Source: Parcubacteria group bacterium
GTDB taxonomy: Bacteria > Patescibacteriota > Minisyncoccia > Moranbacterales > UBA11712
Assembly: GCA_041659685.1 (NCBI GenBank)
Contig: JBAZXV010000002.1
Coordinates: 120,195-184,194 of the forward strand
Length of the DNA stretch: 64,000 bases
Reading direction: 5' to 3'
Part shown: piece by piece, positions 3,402 to 59,545 of the stretch
Layout of the letters: each line of letters opens with the position of its first letter
Numbering within the stretch: the stretch's first letter is position 1
Made by a program: the position numbers and the translations under genes
Notes under the pieces: generated by a model
Told to the model about the DNA's origin: nothing
Seen by the model: only the letters and a program-made list of their open reading frames with translations
Database searches by the model: none

Positions 3402-3475
3402 TTTTACGATTTATGATTTACGAATTAAGATTTATGAATTTGTAAATCATTGATTTTAATTTTTTAACAAATTGT

Positions 3476-4775: not shown

Positions 4776-4811
4776 TAAATGGCTTACTAATGATAAATTT
4801 ATGTGGCGTCA

Positions 4812-4855
4812 TCCTAACATTGAATGTTAGGAGCGCTCAACATTCAATGTTAGGA
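4812..4855 (+). repeat. Two tandem TCCTAA-N9-TTAGGA palindromes abutting the gatB start codon
   Basis: TCCTAACATTGAATGTTAGGA at 4812-4832, then TCAACATTCAATGTTAGGA at 4837-4855. The second copy ends at the A of the gatB ATG. The same stem (TCCTAA/TTAGGA) occurs at uvrB (59519-59541) and in the REPs flanking the RAYT gene (37391-38115). Confidence 0.6.
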
Positions 4856-6297
4856 TGAAATACAAACCGACAATTGGAATGGAGGTTCATGTCGAGCTCA
4901 AGACCGACTCCAAGATGTTCTGCTCATGCAAAAATGAGCTGGGCCTTGATCGGATTCCAAACAAAAATATTTGCCCTGTTTGCACGGGCCAGCCCGGAGC
5001 TTTGCCGGTGGCGAATGAAAAGGCCATTGAGTATGTAATCAGGGCCGGATTGGCGCTTAATTGTGAGATTGCCAGGATTTCCAAGTTTGACCGCAAGAAC
5101 TATTTCTATCCTGACCTTCCGAAAGGATACCAGATTTCCCAATATGATCAGCCGCTTTGCGGAAAGGGATTTTTAGAAATTGGCGGAAAAAAAATCGGGA
5201 TCACAAGGATTCACCTTGAAGAAGACACGGGGAAACTTATTCATCAAAAAGGAACGGATTTCAGCCTTGTCGATTTCAATCGGAGCGGAGTGCCGCTTAT
5301 GGAGCTGGTTACGGAGCCTGAAATTGAATCAGCAGAAGAAGCGAAAAATTTTTGCGAAGAGCTTCAGCTTATTTTGCGATATATGGGAATATCGGACGCG
5401 GATATGGAAAAGGGGCAGATGAGATGCGAAGCGAATATCTCAATCCGAAAAGAGGGCGACAAAAATTTTGGAACAAAAGTGGAAGTGAAAAATTTGAATT
5501 CTTTCAGATCGGTTGAAAAAGCAATCGAATATGAACTCGGGAGGCAGGAAAAAGCGCTGGAAAACGGAGAAAAAATCATTCAGGAAACTCGCGGATGGGA
5601 CGAGGGAAAAATGCAAACTTTTTCCCAAAGAGAGAAAGAGTCGGCGCATGATTATCGGTACTTTCCGGAGCCGGATTTGCCGCCGCTTGAATTCAATGAT
5701 GATTACATCGAAAAAATAAAATGCGAGCTTACGGAATTGCCTGCGCAGAAGATTGAAAGATTCCGGAGGGAATATGAGTTGTCCGAATATGACGCGGAAA
5801 TGCTCGCGCGCGATAAGGATCTGGCGGAATTTTTTGAAAATTCAGTCAGTGAAGCCTGTGAAATTTGCAAGGGCGACGGAAAAATAGCAAAACTTACTGC
5901 CAATTATATAATCTCGGAGCTCAAAAAATATCTGGACGGCCGGAATAAGATTACCGAACTGAAATTAACCCCGGAAAATTTCGGGGAGCTGATGAGTATT
6001 ATTTTTCAAGGAAAGATTAATTCCAGCGCGGCTCAAATCGTTCTTTCTGAAATGGTGAAGACCGGCGCTGATCCGAGTCATGTCATCGCCGAAAAAAATC
6101 TGGGGCAAATCGAAGACGATTCGGAGATAGGAAAAATTATCGAAAAAGTTGTTTCCGAAAACCCTGATCCTGTCGAGGATTACAGAAAAGGAAAGCAGGC
6201 CGCCTTGCAATTTCTTCTGGGGCAGGTTATGAAAGAGAGCAGGGGCAAGGCGGAACCCAAAAAAGCAATGCAGTTAATAAAAGATATTTTACAATAA
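4855..6297 (+). CDS. gatB: Asp/Glu-tRNA(Asn/Gln) amidotransferase subunit B
   Basis: N-terminus MKYKPTIGMEVHVELKTDSKMFCSC and a 480-aa GatB-like layout including a C-terminal YqeY-like domain. Confidence 0.9.
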   Translation: MKYKPTIGMEVHVELKTDSKMFCSCKNELGLDRIPNKNICPVCTGQPGALPVANEKAIEYVIRAGLALNCEIARISKFDRKNYFYPDLPKGYQISQYDQPLCGKGFLEIGGKKIGITRIHLEEDTGKLIHQKGTDFSLVDFNRSGVPLMELVTEPEIESAEEAKNFCEELQLILRYMGISDADMEKGQMRCEANISIRKEGDKNFGTKVEVKNLNSFRSVEKAIEYELGRQEKALENGEKIIQETRGWDEGKMQTFSQREKESAHDYRYFPEPDLPPLEFNDDYIEKIKCELTELPAQKIERFRREYELSEYDAEMLARDKDLAEFFENSVSEACEICKGDGKIAKLTANYIISELKKYLDGRNKITELKLTPENFGELMSIIFQGKINSSAAQIVLSEMVKTGADPSHVIAEKNLGQIEDDSEIGKIIEKVVSENPDPVEDYRKGKQAALQFLLGQVMKESRGKAEPKKAMQLIKDILQ

Positions 6298-8561: not shown

Positions 8562-8597
8562 CCTCGATTCAGTTTCTGGATCGAGGCCAGTTTTTTA
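8562..8597 (+). terminator. Intrinsic terminator
   Basis: GCCTCGAT-loop-ATCGAGGC stem followed by TTTTTT. Confidence 0.55.
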
Positions 8598-9593
8598 TAA
8601 GAACTTATTTACTGCTTTATTAATCTCCGCATAGTTTTTCAGCCACTTGATTCTTTTGTCGCGCTTGAACCAGGTCATTTGCCGCTTGGCGTAATTTTTT
8701 TCGGCTTGAATAACTTTTTCGACGAGCTCTTGTTTTTTAATCTTTTTTTGTAAATATAGCGGAATCCAAAAATAGGCGAGGCCGAAAGATTGGATTTTTT
8801 TCCAACTTAATCCTTGCTCACGTAATTTTTCAACTTCTTTTATCATACCTTGTCTGAAGCGGGCGAGGACACGTTTTTCGATATTCTTATACAATTCATT
8901 TTTGGATAATTTGATTCCAATCTGCAAAAATTCATATTTCTTAAATCGTAAATCATAAATCTTTTCTCTTGCCGGCACCTTGCCGATGGATTCGCATATT
9001 TCAATCGCGCGGATGAGGCGGACTTTGTTTTTCGCATCGATATTTTTTGCGCGTTCGGAATCCGTCTTTTTCAGTATCGTGAGTAATTTTTCCACCGAAT
9101 ATTTTTCCAGTTTTTTGCGCAGCTGCCAATCCGGTTTCACTTCGGGAAAATTTACGTTGTCGACAATTGCCTGAATCCAAAATCCTGTTCCGCCGCAAAT
9201 GATGGGAAACTTTCCGCGCCGCAAAATATCCTCGATTATCTTTTCCGCCCGCTTTTTGAATTTCGCGACGCTATAATCCGTCTGTGGGGAAATTATGTCA
9301 ATCAGGTGGTGAGGAATGCCGCTGGAAAGGAATATCGTCCTCAGTGTTGCGAGATCCTTCGACGTGCTGCGCTTTCTCAGGATGACAGGCATTATTTTGC
9401 CCGTCACCTTTCCGGTGCCGATGTTCATGCCGCGAAAAACTTGCCGGCTGTCCGCCGAAATGACTTCTCCGTTAAACATTTTGGCTATTTTAATGGCAAT
9501 ATCGGATTTACCGGAAGATGTCGGTCCAAGGATAACGAATATTTTATTATTTTTTTTCGGCTGTGATATGCTGGCCGGAATTTTATTAGTCAT
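8595..9593 (-). CDS. miaA: tRNA dimethylallyltransferase
   Basis: P-loop ILGPTSSGKS and a DSRQVFRGMNIGT motif. 332 aa. Confidence 0.9.
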   Translation of the reverse strand: MTNKIPASISQPKKNNKIFVILGPTSSGKSDIAIKIAKMFNGEVISADSRQVFRGMNIGTGKVTGKIMPVILRKRSTSKDLATLRTIFLSSGIPHHLIDIISPQTDYSVAKFKKRAEKIIEDILRRGKFPIICGGTGFWIQAIVDNVNFPEVKPDWQLRKKLEKYSVEKLLTILKKTDSERAKNIDAKNKVRLIRAIEICESIGKVPAREKIYDLRFKKYEFLQIGIKLSKNELYKNIEKRVLARFRQGMIKEVEKLREQGLSWKKIQSFGLAYFWIPLYLQKKIKKQELVEKVIQAEKNYAKRQMTWFKRDKRIKWLKNYAEINKAVNKFL

Positions 9594-9935
9594 TTTGAGA
9601 AATAATTTTTCAACGAGAGAATTATTTGTTATAATTATATCAACGATTTTACGGGGGTGTGAATTATGTATTGGCTAAGTCCATGGGAGAAGGCATTAGA
9701 CATTGTTGCCAGGAATCTTTTTTGGAAAGCTTATCGGAAAAAGGATCTTCCAAAAAAGATTGAGATTGAAATGGAGCTCAAAATCTTCGAGCAAGACCAA
9801 TCTCTGTTCATTCGACTTATTGAGTTTTGCCAAAATATTGGTTGGGAATCGGCTGAATTCAAAAAGAGCGAGGAGAGGAGCATCTTCCTTGTGCTTAAAA
9901 GAGCGCAAAAAAGATGTTCTTCAGGCTGAGCCCGC

Positions 9936-11462
9936 TTACTGAGCGGGCTCAAGGATTTTCATCGATATTCCTTCCAGTCCGAACGGTTTGGCTTTTTCGA
10001 TTTTAACTTTTTGAAAACTCCCGATGGGGATTTTTTTGTTGGAGGAAAATATAACTTTCTTTTGAGTGCGGGTGTGGCTCGAGTATCTATATAAAATTCG
10101 AGTCGAAATTCTTTTCGTCCAAGGTTCGGCCTTTTTTCCTCCGACGTTACGTCGGAGTTCCTCAAGGTCAAACCTTTTATCAACTAAAACTTCAACGGAT
10201 TTTCTAACATACTTTTTATTGTTCGCAAGAGCTGTTTTTTTCAGAATTTCCGTGAGGACTTTTTCGCGGCGGACTTTTTCTTTTTTTGAAACATTGTCCT
10301 TCATCTTCCAGGCGGCGGTTTCAGGGCGCGGCGAGTATTGGGCGATATAGGCCATATCAAATTTCATGTCGCGGAAAAGCTTGGCGGTATTTTCAAATTG
10401 ATTTTTTGTTTCGCCGGGAAATCCGACAATTATGTCGGTGGAAACAGCGGGCGGCAGTTTGGAGACTAAGTCTCCAATTGGGGACTTAGTCTCCAAGTAG
10501 GCGCGGCGGATTTTTTTGATGAGGCACTTATAGTGTTCGGTTGTGTATTTGCGGTTCATTTTACGAAGGATTGTGTCATCTCCCGATTGGGCGGGCAAGG
10601 AAACATATTCACAAACTTTTTTGCATTTGGAAATTGTTTCTATGAGTTCATCGGACATATCTTTTGGGTGGCTGGTGAGAAACGTCAGCCAGAAGTTTCC
10701 GGGAATGACATCTATTAGTCTTAATAAGTCGGCAAAGCCAATAGCCTGCTTTTTTGAATCATGAATCATGAACCTCGAATTATGGTTTCTCGATTTTTTC
10801 CCTGATTCACAATTCATAATTCCTAATTCATTTTTGTAGCTATTCACATTCTGACCAAGCAAAAAAATTTCTCTGTATCCTTTTTTCACCAGGCTGCGAA
10901 CTTCTTTCAAAATGTTTTCAGCCGGCCTTGAATATTCCCTTCCGCGGGCGTAGGGCACGACGCAGTAGGCACAGAAATTGTTGCAGCCGGTCATGACGGG
11001 AATATAAGCGGTATACTTGTTGGTGTATGTCGGCTCTATTTTTAAGTAATCATTACATGGTTTATTTTTTGAATTATGAATTATGAATTTTGAATCAGGG
11101 TTTTTATTTTTTCTCCATAATTCCTGATTCATAATTCCTGATTCAATTATTTCTTGTGGAAAATATTTAATTTCACAAAATAAATCAACCTTTCCCTTGA
11201 GCCTTCTCCGGACATCTTTTCGATGGGCGAGGCAGCCAGTCAATATTATTTTTTTCTTAGGGTATTTTTTTCGCAGGTTATGAACCAGCCCATAAACCCT
11301 GTCCTCCGGTGTTTGGCGTACGCCGCAGGTGACGAACACGATTAAATCAGCCGCATCAATCGAGGCGGCCGGTTTAAGTTTGTTTTTTTTGAGAATTGTC
11401 GCAATTCTTTCGGCGTCGGAATAATTCATCTGGCAGCCGAATATTTTGAGAAAGTAGGTCAT
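9936..11462 (-). CDS. miaB: Radical SAM methylthiotransferase (MiaB-like) with in-frame insertions
   Basis: N-terminal MTTase domain (IFGCQMNYSD). Radical SAM CxxxCxxC (TGCNNFCAYC). C-terminal TRAM-like region. It is 508 aa versus about 445 typical. Two roughly 27-aa inserts (GIMNQELWRKNKNPDSKFIIHNSKNKP and GIMNCESGKKSRNHNSRFMIHDSKKQA) are encoded by palindromic DNA. It lies adjacent to miaA. Confidence 0.85.
   Translation of the reverse strand: MTYFLKIFGCQMNYSDAERIATILKKNKLKPAASIDAADLIVFVTCGVRQTPEDRVYGLVHNLRKKYPKKKIILTGCLAHRKDVRRRLKGKVDLFCEIKYFPQEIIESGIMNQELWRKNKNPDSKFIIHNSKNKPCNDYLKIEPTYTNKYTAYIPVMTGCNNFCAYCVVPYARGREYSRPAENILKEVRSLVKKGYREIFLLGQNVNSYKNELGIMNCESGKKSRNHNSRFMIHDSKKQAIGFADLLRLIDVIPGNFWLTFLTSHPKDMSDELIETISKCKKVCEYVSLPAQSGDDTILRKMNRKYTTEHYKCLIKKIRRAYLETKSPIGDLVSKLPPAVSTDIIVGFPGETKNQFENTAKLFRDMKFDMAYIAQYSPRPETAAWKMKDNVSKKEKVRREKVLTEILKKTALANNKKYVRKSVEVLVDKRFDLEELRRNVGGKKAEPWTKRISTRILYRYSSHTRTQKKVIFSSNKKIPIGSFQKVKIEKAKPFGLEGISMKILEPAQ
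10462..10495. repeat. Perfect palindrome GGAGACTAAGTCTCC plus a partial second copy, inside the miaB coding sequence
   Basis: ggagactaagtctcc-aattgg-ggacttagtctcc. It encodes LETKSPIGDLVSKL in frame. Confidence 0.6.
10755..10830. repeat. About 76-bp palindromic element (copy 1) inserted in frame in miaB
   Basis: tgaatcatgaatcatgaacctcgaattatgg...ccctgattcacaattcataattcctaattca. It contains an internal inverted repeat and is in reverse orientation relative to copy 2. Confidence 0.6.
11071..11146. repeat. About 76-bp palindromic element (copy 2) inserted in frame in miaB
   Basis: tgaattatgaattatgaattttgaatcaggg...ccataattcctgattcataattcctgattca. The left arm is approximately the reverse complement of the right arm of copy 1. 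Confidence 0.6.
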
Positions 11463-36106: not shown

Positions 36107-37390
36107 ATGCTTGATATTAAATACATCCGGGAAAATAAAGATGCCGTAAAGAAAAATTGCGAGCTTCGCAATATCGCTTGCGATGTGGATAGGATTTTGG
36201 AATTGGATGGAGAAAGAAAAGATCTAATTGAGAAAATTGAAGGATTTAGAAAAGGAAAAAATGAAATAAATGAGCAGATGAAAAATATCGCAAATATCAG
36301 TGCCGAAGAAAAAAAAGAAATCCTGATGAGAGCAAGCGCAATAAAGTTAAACCTTGAACAATTAGAACCGAAATTTGAAGAAATAAATAAGCAATTTCAG
36401 GAGCTTATTTTAGGCATTCCGAATATGACGCATCCCGATTCGCCGATTGGGAAAGACGACGGCGAAAACAAGGAGATTGAAAGATATGGCGAACCGCCGA
36501 AGTTAGATTTTGTGCCAAAGGGGCATGAAGAGCTGATGAACGATTTGGATCTTATTGATTTCGAACGCGGTGCAAAAGTAGCCGGCGCGAAATTTTATTT
36601 TCTCAAAAACGAAGCGGTGCTTTTGGAACAAGCGCTCATCAACTTTGCTTTTCAGAAGCTGATTAAAAAAGGTTTTATTCTGTTTTCTACGCCTGATATA
36701 GCCAAGGATAAGGTGCTTTTTGGCACAGGCTATAATCCCCGCGGTCCGGAACAGCAAATATACTCCATTGAAAATACGGATTTAAGCTTGATAGCCACCT
36801 CCGAAATTCCTATGGGCGGTTATCACATGAATGAAGTTATTGAAGAAAAAGATCTGCCACTGAAATATGCCGCTATTTCCCATTGTTACCGTGTTGAAGC
36901 CGGATCATATGGAAGGCACAGCGCCGGGCTTTATCGGGTGCATCAGTTTACCAAGGTGGAAATGTTTGTCTATGCCGCTCCGGAATTTTCCGAGGCGATA
37001 CATACGGAACTTAAGAATATAGAAGTGGAAATATTCAAAGACCTAGGCGTGCCGTTTCGCGTGGTGGATATATGCACGGGGGATCTTGGCGGCCCGGCAT
37101 GCCGGAAATATGATCTTGAGGCCTGGATGACAAGCCGCAATGATTGGGGAGAAGTGACGTCGACATCTGATACGACCGATTATCAAGCCCGCAGACTTAA
37201 TATTAAAATTAAACGAGAGAACGGAAAAAAGGAATTTTTACACATGCTCAACGGCACAGCAATCGCTATTTCTCGCGCGCTGATTGCCATCATCGAAAAT
37301 GGACAACTTGTCGACGGTTCAGTCATGATTCCGGAAGTTCTCCAGAAATACATGCCAGGCGGACAAAAAGCCATCAAACCCAAAAAATGA
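36107..37390 (+). CDS. serS: Seryl-tRNA synthetase
   Basis: N-terminal coiled-coil arm (MLDIKYIRENKDAVKKN) and class II motifs. 427 aa. Confidence 0.9.
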   Translation: MLDIKYIRENKDAVKKNCELRNIACDVDRILELDGERKDLIEKIEGFRKGKNEINEQMKNIANISAEEKKEILMRASAIKLNLEQLEPKFEEINKQFQELILGIPNMTHPDSPIGKDDGENKEIERYGEPPKLDFVPKGHEELMNDLDLIDFERGAKVAGAKFYFLKNEAVLLEQALINFAFQKLIKKGFILFSTPDIAKDKVLFGTGYNPRGPEQQIYSIENTDLSLIATSEIPMGGYHMNEVIEEKDLPLKYAAISHCYRVEAGSYGRHSAGLYRVHQFTKVEMFVYAAPEFSEAIHTELKNIEVEIFKDLGVPFRVVDICTGDLGGPACRKYDLEAWMTSRNDWGEVTSTSDTTDYQARRLNIKIKRENGKKEFLHMLNGTAIAISRALIAIIENGQLVDGSVMIPEVLQKYMPGGQKAIKPKK

Positions 37391-38115
37391 TTCCTAAAGC
37401 TCGGCTTTAGGAATAAAAAAATGAGGAAAATACAATTTGCCAATGGTGAATATTACCACATCTTTAATAGAGGTGTGGACAAAAGAAAGATATTCTTGGA
37501 AGAAAGGGATTATCAGAGGTTTTTGTTTTCGCTGAATTTACTCAATGACGATGAAGATGGCTTATTGTTGAAATGGCGCGATTACATGAAGTGCAAAGAA
37601 AAATCTTCAAAACCATTCCTAAAGCTCGGCTTTAGGAATAGAAAGTTCCTAGTTGACATTATAGTTTATTGCCTTAATCCGAATCACTATCATTTATTGG
37701 TAAAGCAGAGAATTGAGAAGGGTGTAGAAAGATTTATGCATAAACTTGGGACGAGCTACACAAAATATTTCAATGAAAAATATAAAAGATCGGGAGTTTT
37801 ATTTCAGGGAAAATTCAAAGCGGTTCACATAAAAAATAACGCAAAACTCCTTTATTTATCGGCCTATATTAATCAAAACAGCCAAATCCACGGAATTGCC
37901 AAATCTGATAAATATCCCTGGAGCAGCTACTCGCAATATTCGGCAAATAAAAAATTTTGTTTATGCAGAACGCATGTTATAGTAAGCCAATTCAGAAACG
38001 CGAAGGAGTATAAGGAATTTTGCAAAGAAAATTTGAAAGAAATGATTGAAAGAAAACAGGATGAAAAACTACTCATGGAAGAGTAATTTGCATTCCTAAA
38101 GCCGAGCTTTGGGAA
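37391..38115 (+). mobile_element. IS200/IS605-like Y1 transposase (RAYT) unit flanked by inverted REP-like palindromes
   Basis: REP1 ttcctaaagctcggctttaggaa at 37391-37413. REP3 ttcctaaagccgagctttgggaa at 38093-38115 is the reverse complement of REP1 with one mismatch. An identical REP2 copy lies at 37616-37638 inside the transposase ORF. Confidence 0.7.
37421..38086 (+). CDS. REP-associated tyrosine transposase (IS200-like Y1_Tnp)
   Basis: YHIFNRG N-terminal motif. HUH motif NHYHLLV. A C-terminal SAYINQN region with Tyr. An extended loop between the motifs contains an in-frame REP copy (..KPFLKLGFRNRKF..). Confidence 0.75.
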   Translation: MRKIQFANGEYYHIFNRGVDKRKIFLEERDYQRFLFSLNLLNDDEDGLLLKWRDYMKCKEKSSKPFLKLGFRNRKFLVDIIVYCLNPNHYHLLVKQRIEKGVERFMHKLGTSYTKYFNEKYKRSGVLFQGKFKAVHIKNNAKLLYLSAYINQNSQIHGIAKSDKYPWSSYSQYSANKKFCLCRTHVIVSQFRNAKEYKEFCKENLKEMIERKQDEKLLMEE

Positions 38116-38252
38116 TGATGATTATGAAGGAAAATATTAATTTGTCTCCCATAAAAGAAATGGAACTCCGGACGTCGAGGATTCTTGCTATTCCGGAAGT
38201 GCTTCAGAAATGGATGCCGGGCGGACAGAAAATAGTTAAACCAAAAAAGTAA
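38115..38252 (+). pseudogene. Chimeric gene remnant: aminotransferase 5'-end-like fused to a duplicate of the serS 3' end
   Basis: The 45-aa ORF MIMKENINLSPIKEMELRTSRILAIPEVLQKWMPGGQKIVKPKK has two recognisable parts. Its first part is about 85% identical at nucleotide level to the start of the aminotransferase gene at 40969 (MEDGKINLSPIKEMELRASRI). Its last roughly 65 nt duplicate serS 37327-37390 (IPEVLQKYMPGGQKAIKPKK*). Confidence 0.45.
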
Positions 38253-47514: not shown

Positions 47515-47761
47515 TCTGAAACTTTATTTTATTATACCTTAAAAGCGGGATGTCAACAATGAGAGATTCAGAATCTTTTTCAGTTCCTAATTCATTTATT
47601 ATCAACACATTCCATCCGGCAAAAAAAGATCGGATTGAGTTATCCACAATGTTCTAATTAAATTAATTTTGTGGTATAATTTAAAAAAGCGCTGGTTTAA
47701 TTTTCGGCGTTAAAATAAAAAGAAAAAAACTCGGAATCTAAATCTCAATCAAAGATATTTT

Positions 47762-54650: not shown

Positions 54651-54815
54651 ATGACAGACGACATGACAACAACTCCTCCGGCAGACGACACGCAAGCCGA
54701 CGAAGGGATGCAAACTCAGCCAATGACTCCTGCAGGAGAAACTCCTGCAGAAGAAGCTCCAGTTGAGGAAACTCCGGCTGAAGAAGGCGCGGAAGCGACT
54801 CCTCCGACTGAATAG
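54651..54815 (+). CDS. Small acidic Pro/Thr/Glu-rich ORF (54 aa)
   Basis: MTDDMTTTPPADDTQADEGMQTQPMTPAGETPAEEAPVEETPAEEGAEATPPTE. It shares the MTDD start with the preceding ORF. The sequence is low-complexity and the call is low-confidence. Confidence 0.25.
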   Translation: MTDDMTTTPPADDTQADEGMQTQPMTPAGETPAEEAPVEETPAEEGAEATPPTE

Positions 54816-56758: not shown

Positions 56759-57625
56759 TTAAATAAGCAAGTTCATGCTCTCGAGCAAGGATTTTTGGTT
56801 CACGTTTTGGATTTCGATGCCCGGACGGCCGTTGATTTCGATGAGGACGACGCGATCATTTTTGTCGATGATCAAATCCACCCCGGAAATAAGAAGTTGG
56901 GAAAGTTTAGAGGCCTCTATAGAGGCCTCTATCAATTTGCCCCAATGCGGGATGCGAAAGTTTTCCGGAATGTCAAAATCCGAAAGTTTGAATGCGCGTT
57001 CCTCTTTTTTGGAAAAAAGATGCGTCACTTTGCCGGTTTTGACGTCGATGCCGACGCCGATGGCGCCGACGGTGAGGTTGGCCCGTCCGCGGGTGGCTTT
57101 GGTCGAATGTCTCAGCATGGCCATGACGGGAACGAAATTTACGCAAAAAATCCGGATGTCGGGCAGGCCGGCGGAGTGTTTGAACATAATTTTTGGCGAC
57201 GGATAGATTCTTTCCTCAACGATTGCGACATCTCTTTCCGAATGGCCGGAATATTCACCATCCAGGATGCGGCGAATGTGTTTTCGAATTTGTTTTTCGG
57301 AATACTTTTCGCCCGAAGGATCAAAAAACTTCCCGTCTTTCTTCTCAAGGACCATGATGCCGCTTCCGCCGAAGCCCCGGGACGGCTTGATCACGAATTC
57401 TTCCGGGAAAAGCCGGATTTTTTCAAGATCCGCGATGTTTTCAATTTCGAAAAAAGTTTTCGGCGAATATATTCCATGCTGAGAAAAGAGTTTTTTGGCC
57501 GCCGCTTTATTCTTGGCGAGGTCGAGTGATTCCCAGAAATTATATTCCCGAATCAAGAAATTGCGAAAATTCATGCCGAGCGGCTTTTTCTTTTCAGAAA
57601 AATATTTTCTGGACAAATTAATCAT
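56759..57625 (-). CDS. RimK-like ATP-grasp ligase (alpha-L-glutamate-ligase-like)
   Basis: 288 aa. FVIKPSRGFGGSGIMV (ATP-grasp B-loop) and a C-terminal LIEINGRPGIEIQN (Mg/ATP-binding E..N motif). Confidence 0.7.
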   Translation of the reverse strand: MINLSRKYFSEKKKPLGMNFRNFLIREYNFWESLDLAKNKAAAKKLFSQHGIYSPKTFFEIENIADLEKIRLFPEEFVIKPSRGFGGSGIMVLEKKDGKFFDPSGEKYSEKQIRKHIRRILDGEYSGHSERDVAIVEERIYPSPKIMFKHSAGLPDIRIFCVNFVPVMAMLRHSTKATRGRANLTVGAIGVGIDVKTGKVTHLFSKKEERAFKLSDFDIPENFRIPHWGKLIEASIEASKLSQLLISGVDLIIDKNDRVVLIEINGRPGIEIQNVNQKSLLESMNLLI

Positions 57626-59473: not shown

Positions 59474-59545
59474 TGGACTTTTATTTTTTTAGTGTATATA
59501 ATTTATGAACGATGCGTTTTCCTAACATTTAATGTTAGGAAATGA
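59474..59545 (+). promoter_or_regulatory. uvrB promoter (TGGACT-17-TATAAT) plus downstream TTCCTAACATTTAATGTTAGGAA palindrome (candidate LexA operator or 5'UTR hairpin)
   Basis: -35 at 59474-59479 and -10 at 59497-59502. A perfect 9+9 palindrome with a 1-nt centre lies at 59519-59541, 20 nt before the uvrB ATG. A rho-independent-like hairpin (GAGGCG...CGCCTC TTTT) lies upstream at about 59437-59470. Confidence 0.45.

What the first reader, a model, noticed from the sequence alone, without database searches (positions are those of the whole stretch)
9936..11462. miaB-like methylthiotransferase carries three in-frame palindromic DNA insertions, two of them copies of the same roughly 76-bp element in opposite orientations
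The ORF is about 60 aa longer than typical MiaB.
- Two related inserts at 10755-10830 and 11071-11146 consist of AT-rich palindromic DNA (tgaattatgaattatgaa...ataattcctgattca). Each has internal inverted repeats, and the two are in mutually inverted orientation.
- They translate to similar Asn/Lys/Ser-rich 27-aa loops (GIMNCESGKKSRNHNSRFMIHDSKKQA and GIMNQELWRKNKNPDSKFIIHNSKNKP) without breaking the frame.
- A third perfect palindrome (GGAGACTAAGTCTCC plus a partial copy) at 10462-10495 is also in frame.

This looks like a small mobile palindromic (MITE-like) element that can reside inside coding sequence in either orientation. Alternatively it could be a programmed structural or regulatory feature of the mRNA.
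Basis: seen in the sequence. Interest (0 to 1): 0.6.

Follow-up and report, generated by a model that had tools for sequence, protein, structure and literature searches.

The report
Hairpin repeat elements inside miaB gene
A tRNA-modification gene (miaB) of a tiny candidate-phyla-radiation (CPR) bacterium carries four in-frame copies of small hairpin-forming repeat DNA in floppy surface loops, much like the "selfish DNA in genes" known from Rickettsia, and a likely mobilising enzyme gene lies 26 kb away.

Summary
miaB (9936-11462, minus strand, 508 aa) carries four palindromic in-frame inserts, not three. The two ~80-nt copies lie in the same orientation, not opposite.

All four inserts fold far better than shuffles (z -4.3 to -7.7). 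All map to low-confidence loops of an otherwise confident AlphaFold model. Three of the four sites (1, 3 and 4) are short and hairpin-free in a related clade of 428-440 aa MiaBs.

Each insert belongs to a dispersed repeat family:
- The heptamer-arm hairpin (four 7-nt units per arm) recurs in-frame in a LeuRS and a glycosyltransferase of other CPR genomes, and in intergenic DNA.
- The TTGG..CCAATTGG..CCAA palindrome recurs in miaA and elsewhere.
Its arms share the 13-nt core of REP hairpins that flank a RayT-like tyrosine transposase at 37421-38086.

Sense and antisense stability do not differ, which argues against an mRNA-structure role.

Best reading: REP/REPIN/RPE-like selfish hairpin DNA tolerated in permissive loops, with miaB as a recurrent hot spot. 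This is a new variant of a known kind. The mobilisation step is inferred, not shown.

The parts
9936..11462 (-). miaB-like radical-SAM methylthiotransferase CDS (508 aa), host of four in-frame hairpin inserts. It lies in the conserved order thrS-miaB-miaA.
   Evidence: ORF list. Pfam PF00919 + PF04055. TIGR00089 at 377 bits, above its cutoff; the MiaB equivalog TIGR01574 at 340.5 bits, just under its 355.3 cutoff. 7MJV MiaB E = 2.9e-59. Synteny in L121-L125.
11060..11152 (-). Site 1: heptamer-arm hairpin element, copy B. Arms at 11070-11100 and 11115-11146, each 4 x 7 nt, with an A-rich loop on the sense strand. It encodes ESGIMNQELWRKNKNPDSKFIIHNSKNK in the linker between the N-terminal and radical-SAM domains.
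   Evidence: Model R1 scores 94.5 bits on the sense strand. z = -4.6. pLDDT <50 for residues 113-136. Only one of six frames is open.
10745..10837 (-). Site 2: heptamer-arm hairpin element, copy A. Arms at 10754-10785 and 10800-10830. It encodes ELGIMNCESGKKSRNHNSRFMIHDSKKQ, inserted after LLGQNVNSY.
   Evidence: R1 scores 100.9 bits on the sense strand. z = -4.3. 26-aa insertion relative to 7MJV. pLDDT <50 for residues 215-235. 76% identical to copy B.
10459..10496 (-). Site 3: 38-nt double palindrome, TTGGAGACTAAGTCTCCAA|TTGGGGACTTAGTCTCCAA on the + strand. It encodes LETKSPIGDLVSKL and belongs to the TTGG-N11-CCAATTGG-N11-CCAA family.
   Evidence: z = -7.7. It is the strongest structured 70-nt window in the 64 kb. 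Family members are in L121 miaB, L124 miaA, and L141:5277 and L141:14604.
10116..10181 (-). Site 4 (not in the finding): two-stem, REPIN-like element AAGGTTTGACCTT-GAGGAAC-[TCCGACG taa CGTCGGA]-GGAAAA-AAGGCCGAACCTT. It encodes RFDLEELRRNVGGKKAEPW at the radical-SAM/TRAM junction.
   Evidence: z = -5.5. Model R2 scores 63 bits. Family alignment A6 shows compensatory outer-stem changes. The arm core is shared with RayT-flanking REPs. pLDDT <50 for residues 434-453.
10094..10110 (-). Small extra palindrome AATTTCGAcTCGAAATT, directly downstream (in the gene's sense) of the site-4 element. It encodes part of KRISTRIL.
   Evidence: Read from the sequence and seen in the fold. A related (TTCGAAA)n palindrome occurs twice in L183.
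37421..38086 (+). RayT-like (IS200/IS605-type Y1, HUH) tyrosine transposase gene, 221 aa. It is the candidate trans-acting mobiliser of hairpin repeats.
   Evidence: PF01797 E = 2.6e-9, 37.7 bits against a cutoff of 23. NF047646 REP_Tyr_transpos scores 27.6 bits, below its cutoff of 80. More than 3000 homologues of about 221 aa in Moranbacteria and Parcubacteria; JGI names several of them 'REP element-mobilizing transposase RayT'. Motifs YHIFNRG, NHYHLL and SAYINQN were read from the translation.
37388..37416 (+). REP hairpin ATTCCTAAAGC-tcg-GCTTTAGGAAT immediately upstream of the RayT-like gene.
   Evidence: 3 hits against 0 expected.
37613..37641 (+). The same REP hairpin inside the RayT-like gene, in frame (peptide PFLKLGFRN, a segment conserved in homologues).
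   Evidence: The same internal copy is present in L198.
38091..38117 (+). REP hairpin immediately downstream of the RayT-like gene, in inverted orientation (loop cga).

Best explanation
The palindromic segments in miaB are copies of several families of small, non-autonomous hairpin repeats. These are selfish DNA of the REP/REPIN/RPE kind. They have become fixed in frame in four structurally permissive, disordered loops of the enzyme.

Shown:
1. They are additions relative to insert-free MiaBs.
2. Each belongs to a family with copies in other genes, other CPR genomes and intergenic DNA.
3. Coding copies always have one orientation and are stop-free in the frame used.
4. The same four MiaB loops carry different families in different lineages.

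Inferred:
- The elements move as single-stranded DNA hairpins through a resident RayT-like HUH tyrosine transposase (window 37421-38086). For the site-4 two-stem family this rests on the arms being an inverted doublet of the 13-nt core of the REPs that flank RayT. For the heptamer-arm hairpin and the TTGG..CCAA palindrome the mobiliser is unknown.
- Selection then keeps only insertions that land in tolerant loops, in the one orientation and frame without stops. These give Asn/Ser/Lys/His-rich loops.
- Arm lengths can change in 7-nt steps by slippage, and arms stay complementary through DNA-level processes rather than selection on the mRNA.
For: Insertion polarity:
- Clade L147-L158 (46-48% identity, 428-440 aa) and 7MJV have short, non-hairpin loops at sites 1, 3 and 4.
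- In the AlphaFold model the segments with pLDDT <50 coincide with the four inserts.

Significance of the hairpins:
- z = -4.3 to -7.7 against shuffles.
- miaB holds 4 of the 29 most structured 70-nt windows in the 64 kb.
- Hairpin density is 1.83 per kb in miaB, 0.49 in other ORFs and about 0.22 in codon shuffles.

Dispersal of the heptamer hairpin:
- A profile of the two window peptides finds the same insert in a PMT_2-like glycosyltransferase (two copies, 93% identical DNA), a LeuRS (two copies) and others.
- The DNA was confirmed with model R1 in L195 and L197, including an intergenic copy at L195:13640-13737.
- Further copies: L143 miaB site 1, although that protein is only 51% identical; intergenic CPR copies at L105 and L198:4229-4342.

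Dispersal of the other families:
- Identical or near-identical palindromes at unlinked loci and in miaA.
- At least 27 R2 hits of >=36 bits. Of 13 strong non-miaB hits checked, 12 lie inside long ORFs, always in sense orientation, and between them use all three frames.

Orientation and frame filter: the six-frame test.

Link to RayT:
- The gene with flanking and internal REPs.
- The same architecture in a Moranbacteria genome.
- The core AAAGC-TCG-GCTTT plus AGGAAT is shared with the two-stem arms. In L123 the REP variant AAGGT..ACCTT matches that genome's own two-stem arms.

Against an RNA role: 19 hairpins are more stable on the sense strand and 28 on the antisense strand; G-U pairs number 61 sense and 113 antisense.
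Against: - No further copy of any of the three miaB families was found in the other 62 kb of this window. The rest of the source genome could not be read.
- No clear target-site duplication or defined ends were seen. The flanks are A-rich and uninformative.
- No empty-site polymorphism was found. L121 and L122 differ by 3 substitutions and no indels.
- The RayT-flanking REP in this window is of AAAGC type, whereas the window's own site-4 copy is a degenerate AAGGT type.
- The heptamer hairpin has no REP core, and its one shared 8-mer with the REP is not above chance: 7 hits against 4.05 expected.
- Heptamer arrays are low-complexity. The 65-78% identity between copies in different genomes could therefore partly be convergence.
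- At site 1 several orthologues have only the right-hand array. This fits local growth as well as deletion.
Confidence: 0.68

Rival explanations
1. The inserts arose locally with no mobile element. Hypervariable loops accumulate 7-nt tandem arrays by replication slippage. Template switching (quasi-palindrome conversion) then copies an array into an inverted partner and keeps the arms complementary. Similar sequences in other genes are convergent.
For: - At site 1, L121, L124, L125, L126, L127 and others have only a 4-5-unit tandem array where the window, L123, L141 and L143 have a left arm, a loop and a right arm.
- Within one gene, the same genome-specific heptamer type sits at both sites 1 and 2 (L126, L127, L139, window).
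- (TGAATTA)n arrays are common in many phyla.
- The same four loops are used again and again.
Against: - Long, complex, near-identical palindromes occur at unlinked loci: 42 nt twice in L141; a 15-bp-stem palindrome (34-36 nt overall) in L183 at two loci, in mutually inverted form; and the 59-nt two-stem element in more than 10 different genes.
- The same family occupies different MiaB sites in different lineages, for example the two-stem element at site 3 in L140 and L142, site 4 in most, and site 1 in L182.
- Intergenic copies exist.
- The two L195 copies are 93% identical and 675 bp apart in another gene.
Confidence: 0.17
2. The hairpins are functional cis-elements of the miaB (and miaA) mRNA or gene. 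For example, they could be translational pause sites at domain boundaries that help Fe-S cluster loading, or regulatory or stability elements. On this view structure is conserved while sequence drifts through compensatory change.
For: - Hairpins sit at the same four positions in most members of the clade.
- Two of them are at domain junctions (sites 1 and 4).
- Stems keep pairing through double changes: 6 of 13 outer-stem pairs covary and 2 of 182 cells are broken.
Against: - There is no sense-strand bias in stability or G-U content.
- Unrelated sequence families replace one another at a site.
- Individual sites are empty in some clade members (L130/L141/L142/L193 site 2; L135/L139/L193 site 3; L139/L141 site 4), and sites 1, 3 and 4 are short and hairpin-free in the basal clade.
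- The same elements occur in LeuRS, a glycosyltransferase, other radical-SAM genes and intergenic DNA.
- There is no Rfam match.
Confidence: 0.08
3. The inserts are an assembly artefact, or the gene is decaying: chimeric repeats collapsed into the gene, or a pseudogene.
For: The source is a metagenome-assembled genome. Hairpin repeats can mislead assemblers.
Against: - The ORF is intact. All catalytic cysteines are invariant in the alignment (C46, C77, C160, C164, C167) and the model core is confident.
- Dozens of independent assemblies from different samples show inserts at the same sites.
Confidence: 0.02

Closest known systems
Rickettsia palindromic elements (RPE families; 'selfish DNA in protein-coding genes')
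   Same: Both are small palindromic repeats of several families inserted in frame into housekeeping genes and apparently translated. Some genes carry two copies, and copies also occur between genes. The literature was recalled from memory and is summarised in PMC3733652.
   Different: There is no sequence relation, and the host is a CPR/Parcubacteria-type bacterium. One family here has arms made of 7-nt tandem units. The same four loops of one enzyme are occupied by different families in sister lineages. A RayT-like gene with cognate REPs is present.
REP / REPIN elements with RAYT (REP-associated tyrosine transposase)
   Same: The window has a Y1/HUH transposase gene flanked by short hairpins in inverted orientation (a REPtron-like layout), conserved in relatives. 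The site-4 element is an inverted doublet of the REP core with a spacer, which is the REPIN definition (abstracts). REPs inside coding regions have been reported (PMC3733652).
   Different: Classical REPINs are extragenic and number in the hundreds per genome. Here copies sit mostly inside ORFs, are open in all three sense frames, and are few per contig. No GTAG or CGTC tag is evident. The RayT-like protein scores below NCBIfam's equivalog cutoff. The heptamer hairpin and the TTGG..CCAA palindrome have no REP core.
MITEs that extend or interrupt ORFs (e.g. Coxiella MITEs, Correia elements)
   Same: Both are short, non-autonomous, inverted-repeat elements that can add peptide segments to proteins (PMC5896051 and PMC10969869, listed).
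   Different: No target-site duplication, defined terminal inverted repeats with unrelated internal sequence, or parent IS was found. The whole element is one hairpin.
Heptanucleotide tandem repeats of Cyanobacteria, Bacteroidetes and Beggiatoaceae (STRR; TAACTGA repeats)
   Same: Both have a 7-nt unit, arrays of 2 to tens of copies, and a patchy distribution over distant phyla with no known mechanism (PMC4679880). (TGAATTA)n arrays were found here in the same phyla.
   Different: Those are described as direct, mostly intergenic arrays. Here two inverted 4-unit arrays form a hairpin, and the copies are translated.
Coding palindromes in Nematomorpha mitochondrial genes
   Same: Both are inverted repeats embedded in protein-coding genes, with both arms translated (PMC6649704).
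   Different: Those are in an organelle, are much longer perfect repeats, and are a different phenomenon and lineage. That paper was not read in detail.

Membership tests
MiaB/RimO radical-SAM methylthiotransferases | N-terminal UPF0004 (MTTase) domain with three conserved Cys | tested here: met
   PF00919 E = 1.1e-19. C46 and C77 are invariant in the 34-sequence alignment, and the GCQMN motif is present.
MiaB/RimO radical-SAM methylthiotransferases | Radical-SAM core with CxxxCxxC | tested here: met
   PF04055 E = 1.1e-26. CNNFCAYC, with C160, C164 and C167 invariant.
MiaB/RimO radical-SAM methylthiotransferases | Family-level and MiaB-specific HMM cutoffs | tested here: inconclusive
   TIGR00089 scores 377.4 bits against a cutoff of 251 (met). 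The MiaB equivalog TIGR01574 scores 340.5 against 355.3 (just missed, plausibly because of the inserts). Adjacency to miaA supports MiaB.
REPIN-RAYT system | Single Y1/HUH tyrosine transposase gene flanked by REP hairpins in inverted orientation | tested here: met
   PF01797 hit. Hairpins at 37388-37416 and 38091-38117 with inverted loops. The same layout is in L198. Copy number per genome is not testable here.
REPIN-RAYT system | The protein is a RAYT by curated model | tested here: not met
   NF047646 scores 27.6 bits against a cutoff of 80. JGI names homologues RayT. There is no PDB sequence match.
REPIN-RAYT system | [quoted passage not shown] | tested here: met
   Met for the site-4 two-stem family only. 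The 13-nt core matches 13/13 (right arms of L139, L127, L130) and 12/13 plus AGGAAT (left arms). It is not met for the heptamer hairpin or the site-3 palindrome.
REPIN-RAYT system | Extragenic location and high copy number | tested here: not met
   12 of 13 strong non-miaB copies are inside ORFs. There is one copy in the 64-kb window.
GTAG/CGTC-tagged REPs | GTAG or CGTC tetranucleotide at one end of the stem-loop | tested here: not met
   Neither tag is seen at the ends of the window's four elements or of the RayT-flanking REPs, read. A GTAG-containing REP-like insert does occur in orthologues L131 and L133 at site 1.
MITE | Terminal inverted repeats plus target-site duplication | tested here: inconclusive
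   The arms are inverted repeats. The flanks are A-rich: AAATAA on both sides of copy B and CAAAAA on both sides of copy A. They are too low in complexity to call a duplication.
MITE | Related autonomous IS with matching ends | not tested
   Only 21 of 57 window ORFs were scanned (20, plus miaB). Nothing but the RayT-like gene was seen.
Rickettsia palindromic elements | Sequence homology to an RPE family | not tested
   No RPE sequences were available in the tools used. There is no Rfam hit.
Rickettsia palindromic elements | In-frame palindromic insertion in conserved genes at surface positions | tested here: met
   This is a functional resemblance only.

The most novel reading that the evidence does not exclude
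Heptamer-arm hairpins are a previously undescribed, phylogenetically widespread class of hairpin repeat whose arms grow in 7-nt steps. In CPR bacteria these and REPIN-like elements are driven by the conserved single-copy RayT-like transposase into a small set of permissive protein loops. There successive families overwrite one another. The result would be a transposase-fuelled turnover mechanism for surface loops of housekeeping enzymes in genomes that otherwise have almost no spare DNA.
Probability: 0.2. Interest if true: 0.75.

Novelty: new variant of a known kind. Interest (0 to 1): 0.55.

Why it matters
CPR/Patescibacteria genomes are about 1 Mb, streamlined and largely uncultured. Unexplained insertions in their conserved proteins are often noted but rarely traced to a DNA-level cause.

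The data here show that a good part of the length variation of MiaB (414-549 aa) and MiaA in one CPR clade is hairpin repeat DNA of a few dispersed families. One of these families is tied by sequence to the REPs of a conserved RayT-like transposase.

If this holds genome-wide, three things follow:
- The Rickettsia 'selfish DNA in genes' phenomenon and the REPIN-RAYT system extend to the CPR.
- There is a practical warning for annotation and for HMM cutoffs. This MiaB misses its equivalog cutoff, plausibly because of the inserts (not tested).
- Repeated, independent insertions at the same loops give a natural experiment on which protein loops tolerate 13-30 extra residues.

Tried and rejected
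- Look-up of the window's own MiaB in the contig index: not on record, so the rest of the 192-kb source contig could not be read.
- Genome-collection scan with TGAATYAKGAATYATGAAYY. The pattern is not specific.
- Strain comparison of L121 and L122 for presence/absence polymorphism: 3 substitutions and no indels.
The unindexed profile search then worked.
- mRNA-structure hypothesis: sense and antisense stability and G-U counts show no sense bias.
- Rfam: no family at gathering score in the 64 kb. The only hit is a chance-level plant miRNA match to copy B.
- Proposed link between the heptamer element and the RayT REP through the shared 8-mer ATTCCTAA: 7 hits against 4.05 expected, with 14 of 100 shuffles as high, so it was dropped.
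- tblastn of the RayT-like protein against all fetched loci: none besides the window.
- Model R1 over 758 kb of miaB-centred CPR loci found no further heptamer hairpins outside miaB site 1. Dispersal evidence for this family therefore comes from L195, L197, L105 and L198 only.
- The 'opposite orientation' claim was considered and rejected.
Full report
**What is there.** The finding lies in a 508-aa ORF on the minus strand (9936-11462).
- It has the UPF0004 and Radical_SAM domains. It passes the MiaB/RimO family model (377 bits, cutoff 251) and narrowly misses the MiaB equivalog (340.5 against 355.3).
- It sits between thrS and miaA. That order is conserved in relatives.
- Its closest database relatives are MiaBs of Parcubacteria and Moranbacteria metagenome bins at <=69% identity (BLASTP), so the organism is a CPR bacterium.

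**Checking the observation.**
- Two related ~84-nt segments lie at 10750-10833 and 11065-11148. Each has two inverted arms made of four 7-nt units (TGAATYA and its complement) around a 14-nt loop.
- The 18-mer of the arm occurs 9 times at <=3 mismatches against 0.33 expected. Eight of those hits are in these two segments.
- The 38-nt palindrome is at 10459-10496.
- Folded as single strands, the elements beat all 200 shuffles: z = -4.3 and -4.6 for the two 84-nt elements on the sense strand, and -7.7 for the palindrome.
- The quoted peptides are correct.

Two points need correction.
- First, the two 84-nt copies are not in opposite orientation.
  - The inverted arm matches (94% and 84%) follow from each copy being a near-palindrome.
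  - The full-length alignment is better in the direct sense (69/88 against 59/86).
  - Loops and flanks are co-oriented.
  - A covariance model built from three copies scores both window copies 101 and 94 bits on the coding strand, against 41 and 48 bits on the other strand.
- Second, there is a fourth palindromic insert at 10116-10181, with a small extra palindrome at 10094-10110. It has z = -5.5.
- Together the four are among the 29 most structured 70-nt windows of the 64 kb. Site 3 is the strongest of all.

**Are they insertions at loops?** Yes.
- Against the solved Bacteroides MiaB (7MJV), residues 213-238 and about 326-339 have no counterpart.
- I aligned 34 distinct MiaB genes with their DNA, drawn from 69 loci from a metagenome scan plus five contigs fetched by protein look-up.
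- A clade at 46-48% identity (428-440 aa) has short, non-hairpin loops at three of the four sites: PELLQKKSLQGEVE, IPGVAIS and YQKGKNDIWLGK.
- In the window's clade, most MiaBs carry strong hairpins at these sites, with RNA minimum free energy of about -15 to -56 kcal/mol; individual sites are empty in some lineages.
- An AlphaFold model (mean pLDDT 73, pTM 0.75) has a confident core. Its segments below pLDDT 50 are 113-136, 215-235, 328-333 and 434-453, which are the four inserts. The others are the cysteine loop 159-175 and the C-terminal residues 504-508.

**What the inserts are.** Each belongs to a dispersed repeat family.

(a) Heptamer-arm hairpin.
- An unindexed profile search with the two window peptides found the same insert in a PMT_2-like glycosyltransferase, as ESRI[RK]NQESRKNHDSLFMIHNS, twice.
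- It also found it in a LeuRS (twice) and in several small ORFs.
- Their DNA (L195, L197) contains full hairpins recognised by the model. A third L195 copy lies between convergent genes.
- The two L195 copies are 93% identical. The window's two copies are 76% identical to each other, 71-78% to L143 and 58-74% to the L195/L197 coding copies, so they are old.
- L143, a MiaB only 51% identical to the window's, has the same element at site 1.
- Intergenic copies occur in a Patescibacteria contig (L105) and 0.5 kb from the RayT-like gene of a Moranbacteria genome (L198).
- Hairpins with TGAATYA arms also occur in Bacteroidota, Anaerolineae and Thermoanaerobaculia. Plain (TGAATTA)n arrays are widespread.

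(b) TTGG-N11-CCAATTGG-N11-CCAA palindrome.
- Variants with different inner sequence but intact symmetry sit in L121 miaB and L124 miaA.
- The same 38-nt core, within 42-nt palindromes that differ only in their outermost bases, occurs at two loci of L141.

(c) Two-stem element.
- Fourteen seed copies align with three outer-stem variants: GGTTCGACC, AGCTTGGCT and AGCTAAGCT.
- Six of 13 pairs show double compensatory change, and only 2 of 182 cells are broken.
- Its model finds at least 27 copies of >=36 bits in about 800 kb.
- Of 13 strong copies outside miaB, 12 lie inside long ORFs, always with the element's sense strand as the coding strand.
- They are read in all three frames: RFGLEEF..KAEPW, KSLALRNSKSLALGREKPSF and KAWLWGMTGAELPSGKRRAL.
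- The same family sits at site 4 in most MiaBs, at site 3 in L140 and L142, and at site 1 in L182.

**A likely mobiliser.** Annotating window ORFs turned up a 221-aa Y1_Tnp (IS200-like) protein at 37421-38086.
- It matches the REP-associated tyrosine transposase model only below cutoff.
- Several of its >3000 homologues of about 221 aa in Moranbacteria and Parcubacteria are named RayT by JGI.
- The gene is flanked by the hairpin ATTCCTAAAGC-tcg-GCTTTAGGAAT upstream and by its inverted form downstream.
- It also carries a third copy in frame, in a conserved segment (FLKLxFRKR).
- A Moranbacteria genome has the same layout with a compensated stem (AAAGT..ACTTT), plus a further copy 1 kb away.
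- Aligning these REPs with the halves of the two-stem elements shows the arms are the REP core.
  - AAAGCTCGGCTTT matches 13/13 in the right arms of L139, L127 and L130.
  - The left arms match 12/13 and are followed by (G)AGGAAT, as in the REP.
- In L123 an intergenic REP with stem AAGGT..ACCTT matches that genome's own two-stem arms.

The two-stem element is therefore an inverted REP doublet, which is the definition of a REPIN (abstracts). That RayT moves it is an inference. For the heptamer hairpin and the site-3 palindrome no such link exists, and one candidate shared 8-mer is at chance level.

**Why one orientation and why these loops.**
- Each coding copy of the heptamer hairpin is stop-free in only the frame in use (one copy has two open frames). 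Every antisense frame has stops.
- The intergenic L195 copy is closed in all six frames.
- Selection after insertion therefore explains the uniform orientation.
- Hairpin density is 1.83 per kb in miaB, against 0.49 in other ORFs of the same contigs, 1.97 in intergenic DNA and about 0.22 in codon-shuffled sequence. miaB is thus a marked hot spot.
- miaA shows the same pattern at two to three sites, including in the window.
- On a neighbour-joining tree the clade is star-like, and almost every lineage has its own combination of families at the four sites. This implies repeated gain or replacement.

**Rivals.**
- Purely local origin, by slippage plus template switching, fits the array-only forms at site 1 and the 7-nt periodicity. 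It cannot explain long identical palindromes at unlinked loci or the two-stem family in many genes.
- A functional mRNA structure is not supported. Of 50 strong hairpins, 19 are more stable on the sense strand and 28 on the antisense strand, and G-U pairs number 61 against 113. Families interchange, some sites are empty in individual orthologues, and Rfam has nothing.
- An assembly artefact is excluded by the many independent assemblies.

**Comparison and novelty.**
- In-frame palindromic repeats are known from Rickettsia (RPE) and from REPs inside genes of several bacteria, occasionally twice per gene or at the same site in related species (PMC3733652).
- REPIN-RAYT systems are well described, but as extragenic, high-copy elements.
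- Heptamer direct repeats of unknown origin are known in Cyanobacteria, Bacteroidetes and Beggiatoaceae (PMC4679880).
- Searches for CPR, Parcubacteria or Patescibacteria together with these terms found nothing. The library is incomplete.
- I therefore rate this a new variant of a known kind: REPIN/RPE-like elements in CPR, largely intragenic, with a heptamer-arm family and a four-loop hot spot in MiaB.

**Limits.**
- The rest of the source genome could not be read.
- No empty-site polymorphism or target duplication was seen.
- Retention in the protein is inferred from ORF integrity only.

Noticed in passing
window 37388-38117: A REPtron-like unit. It is a RayT-like Y1 transposase gene (37421-38086) with the hairpin ATTCCTAAAGC-tcg-GCTTTAGGAAT upstream, inside (in frame) and inverted downstream. 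The upstream copy overlaps the serS stop.
   Followed up: yes
window 8595-9593 (miaA); about 9321-9398 and 8939-8961: The neighbouring miaA also carries lineage-specific inserts. One is a structured segment encoding KIMPVILRKRSTSKDLATLRTIFLSS after GTGKV (fold -34 kcal/mol). The other is a 3-unit heptamer array (TAAATCR). At the same two sites orthologues carry other families: a TTGGAGA.. palindrome, AAGTCAA arrays, the two-stem element and ATAC-type arrays.
   Followed up: partly
L001-L120 (genome-contig scan): (TGAATTA)n heptamer arrays occur in very distant phyla: Bacteroidota, Cyanobacteria, Lentisphaerae, Chloroflexota, Spirochaetes and CPR. They often lie next to other heptamer arrays ((GCATTCA)n, (TCTCAAT)n). 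About 12 of the first 100 loci (L001-L100) hold a hairpin form with an inverted partner.
   Followed up: partly
window 4809-4858 and 59518-59542; L131:11569-11595: A perfect 20-bp-stem hairpin, TCATCCTAACATTGAATGTT..AACATTCAATGTTAGGATGA, lies between tmk and gatB. A second hairpin shares CCTAACATT/AATGTTAGG, and a related one is in L131 and L133. This is possibly another REP-like family with the lower stem TCCTAA/TTAGGA.
   Followed up: no
window 56908-56931: A tandem/palindromic TAGAGGCCTCTA x2 lies inside the ATP-grasp (ATPgrasp_ST) gene 56759-57625. It is possibly another in-frame palindrome.
   Followed up: no
window 3403-3450: A heptamer array (TTTACGA/TTTATGA) forms a 14-bp hairpin in the short spacer between the dCMP deaminase and dCTP deaminase genes.
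   Followed up: no
window 9927-9950: The miaB ORF runs about 8 codons past the usual ...GLEG(E)I end into its own terminator hairpin (GAGCCCGCTtacTGAGCGGGCTC). The stop codon lies in the loop.
   Followed up: no
window 47583-47598: AGTTCCTAATTCATTT matches the end of one arm of element A at 15/16 positions in an intergenic region. There is no hairpin partner and no model hit. It may be a remnant or chance.
   Followed up: partly
P0072: A 793-aa relative combines IPPT (MiaA) and MiaB domains in one protein. This is a miaA-miaB fusion in a related lineage.
   Followed up: no
L183:1301-1329 and 10670-10698; L183:5217-5252 and 11263-11296: In one related genome, an identical (TTCGAAA)n palindrome and an essentially identical GGGAGTTCGACTCCC palindrome (the two copies in mutually inverted form) each occur once in miaB and once several kb away. 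This is a clear within-genome duplication of short palindromes.
   Followed up: partly
window 54726-54785: A 15-nt tandem repeat (ACTCCTGCAGAAGAA x4), which would encode a (TPAEE)-like repeat if translated, next to a 12-bp palindrome. The context was not examined.
   Followed up: no
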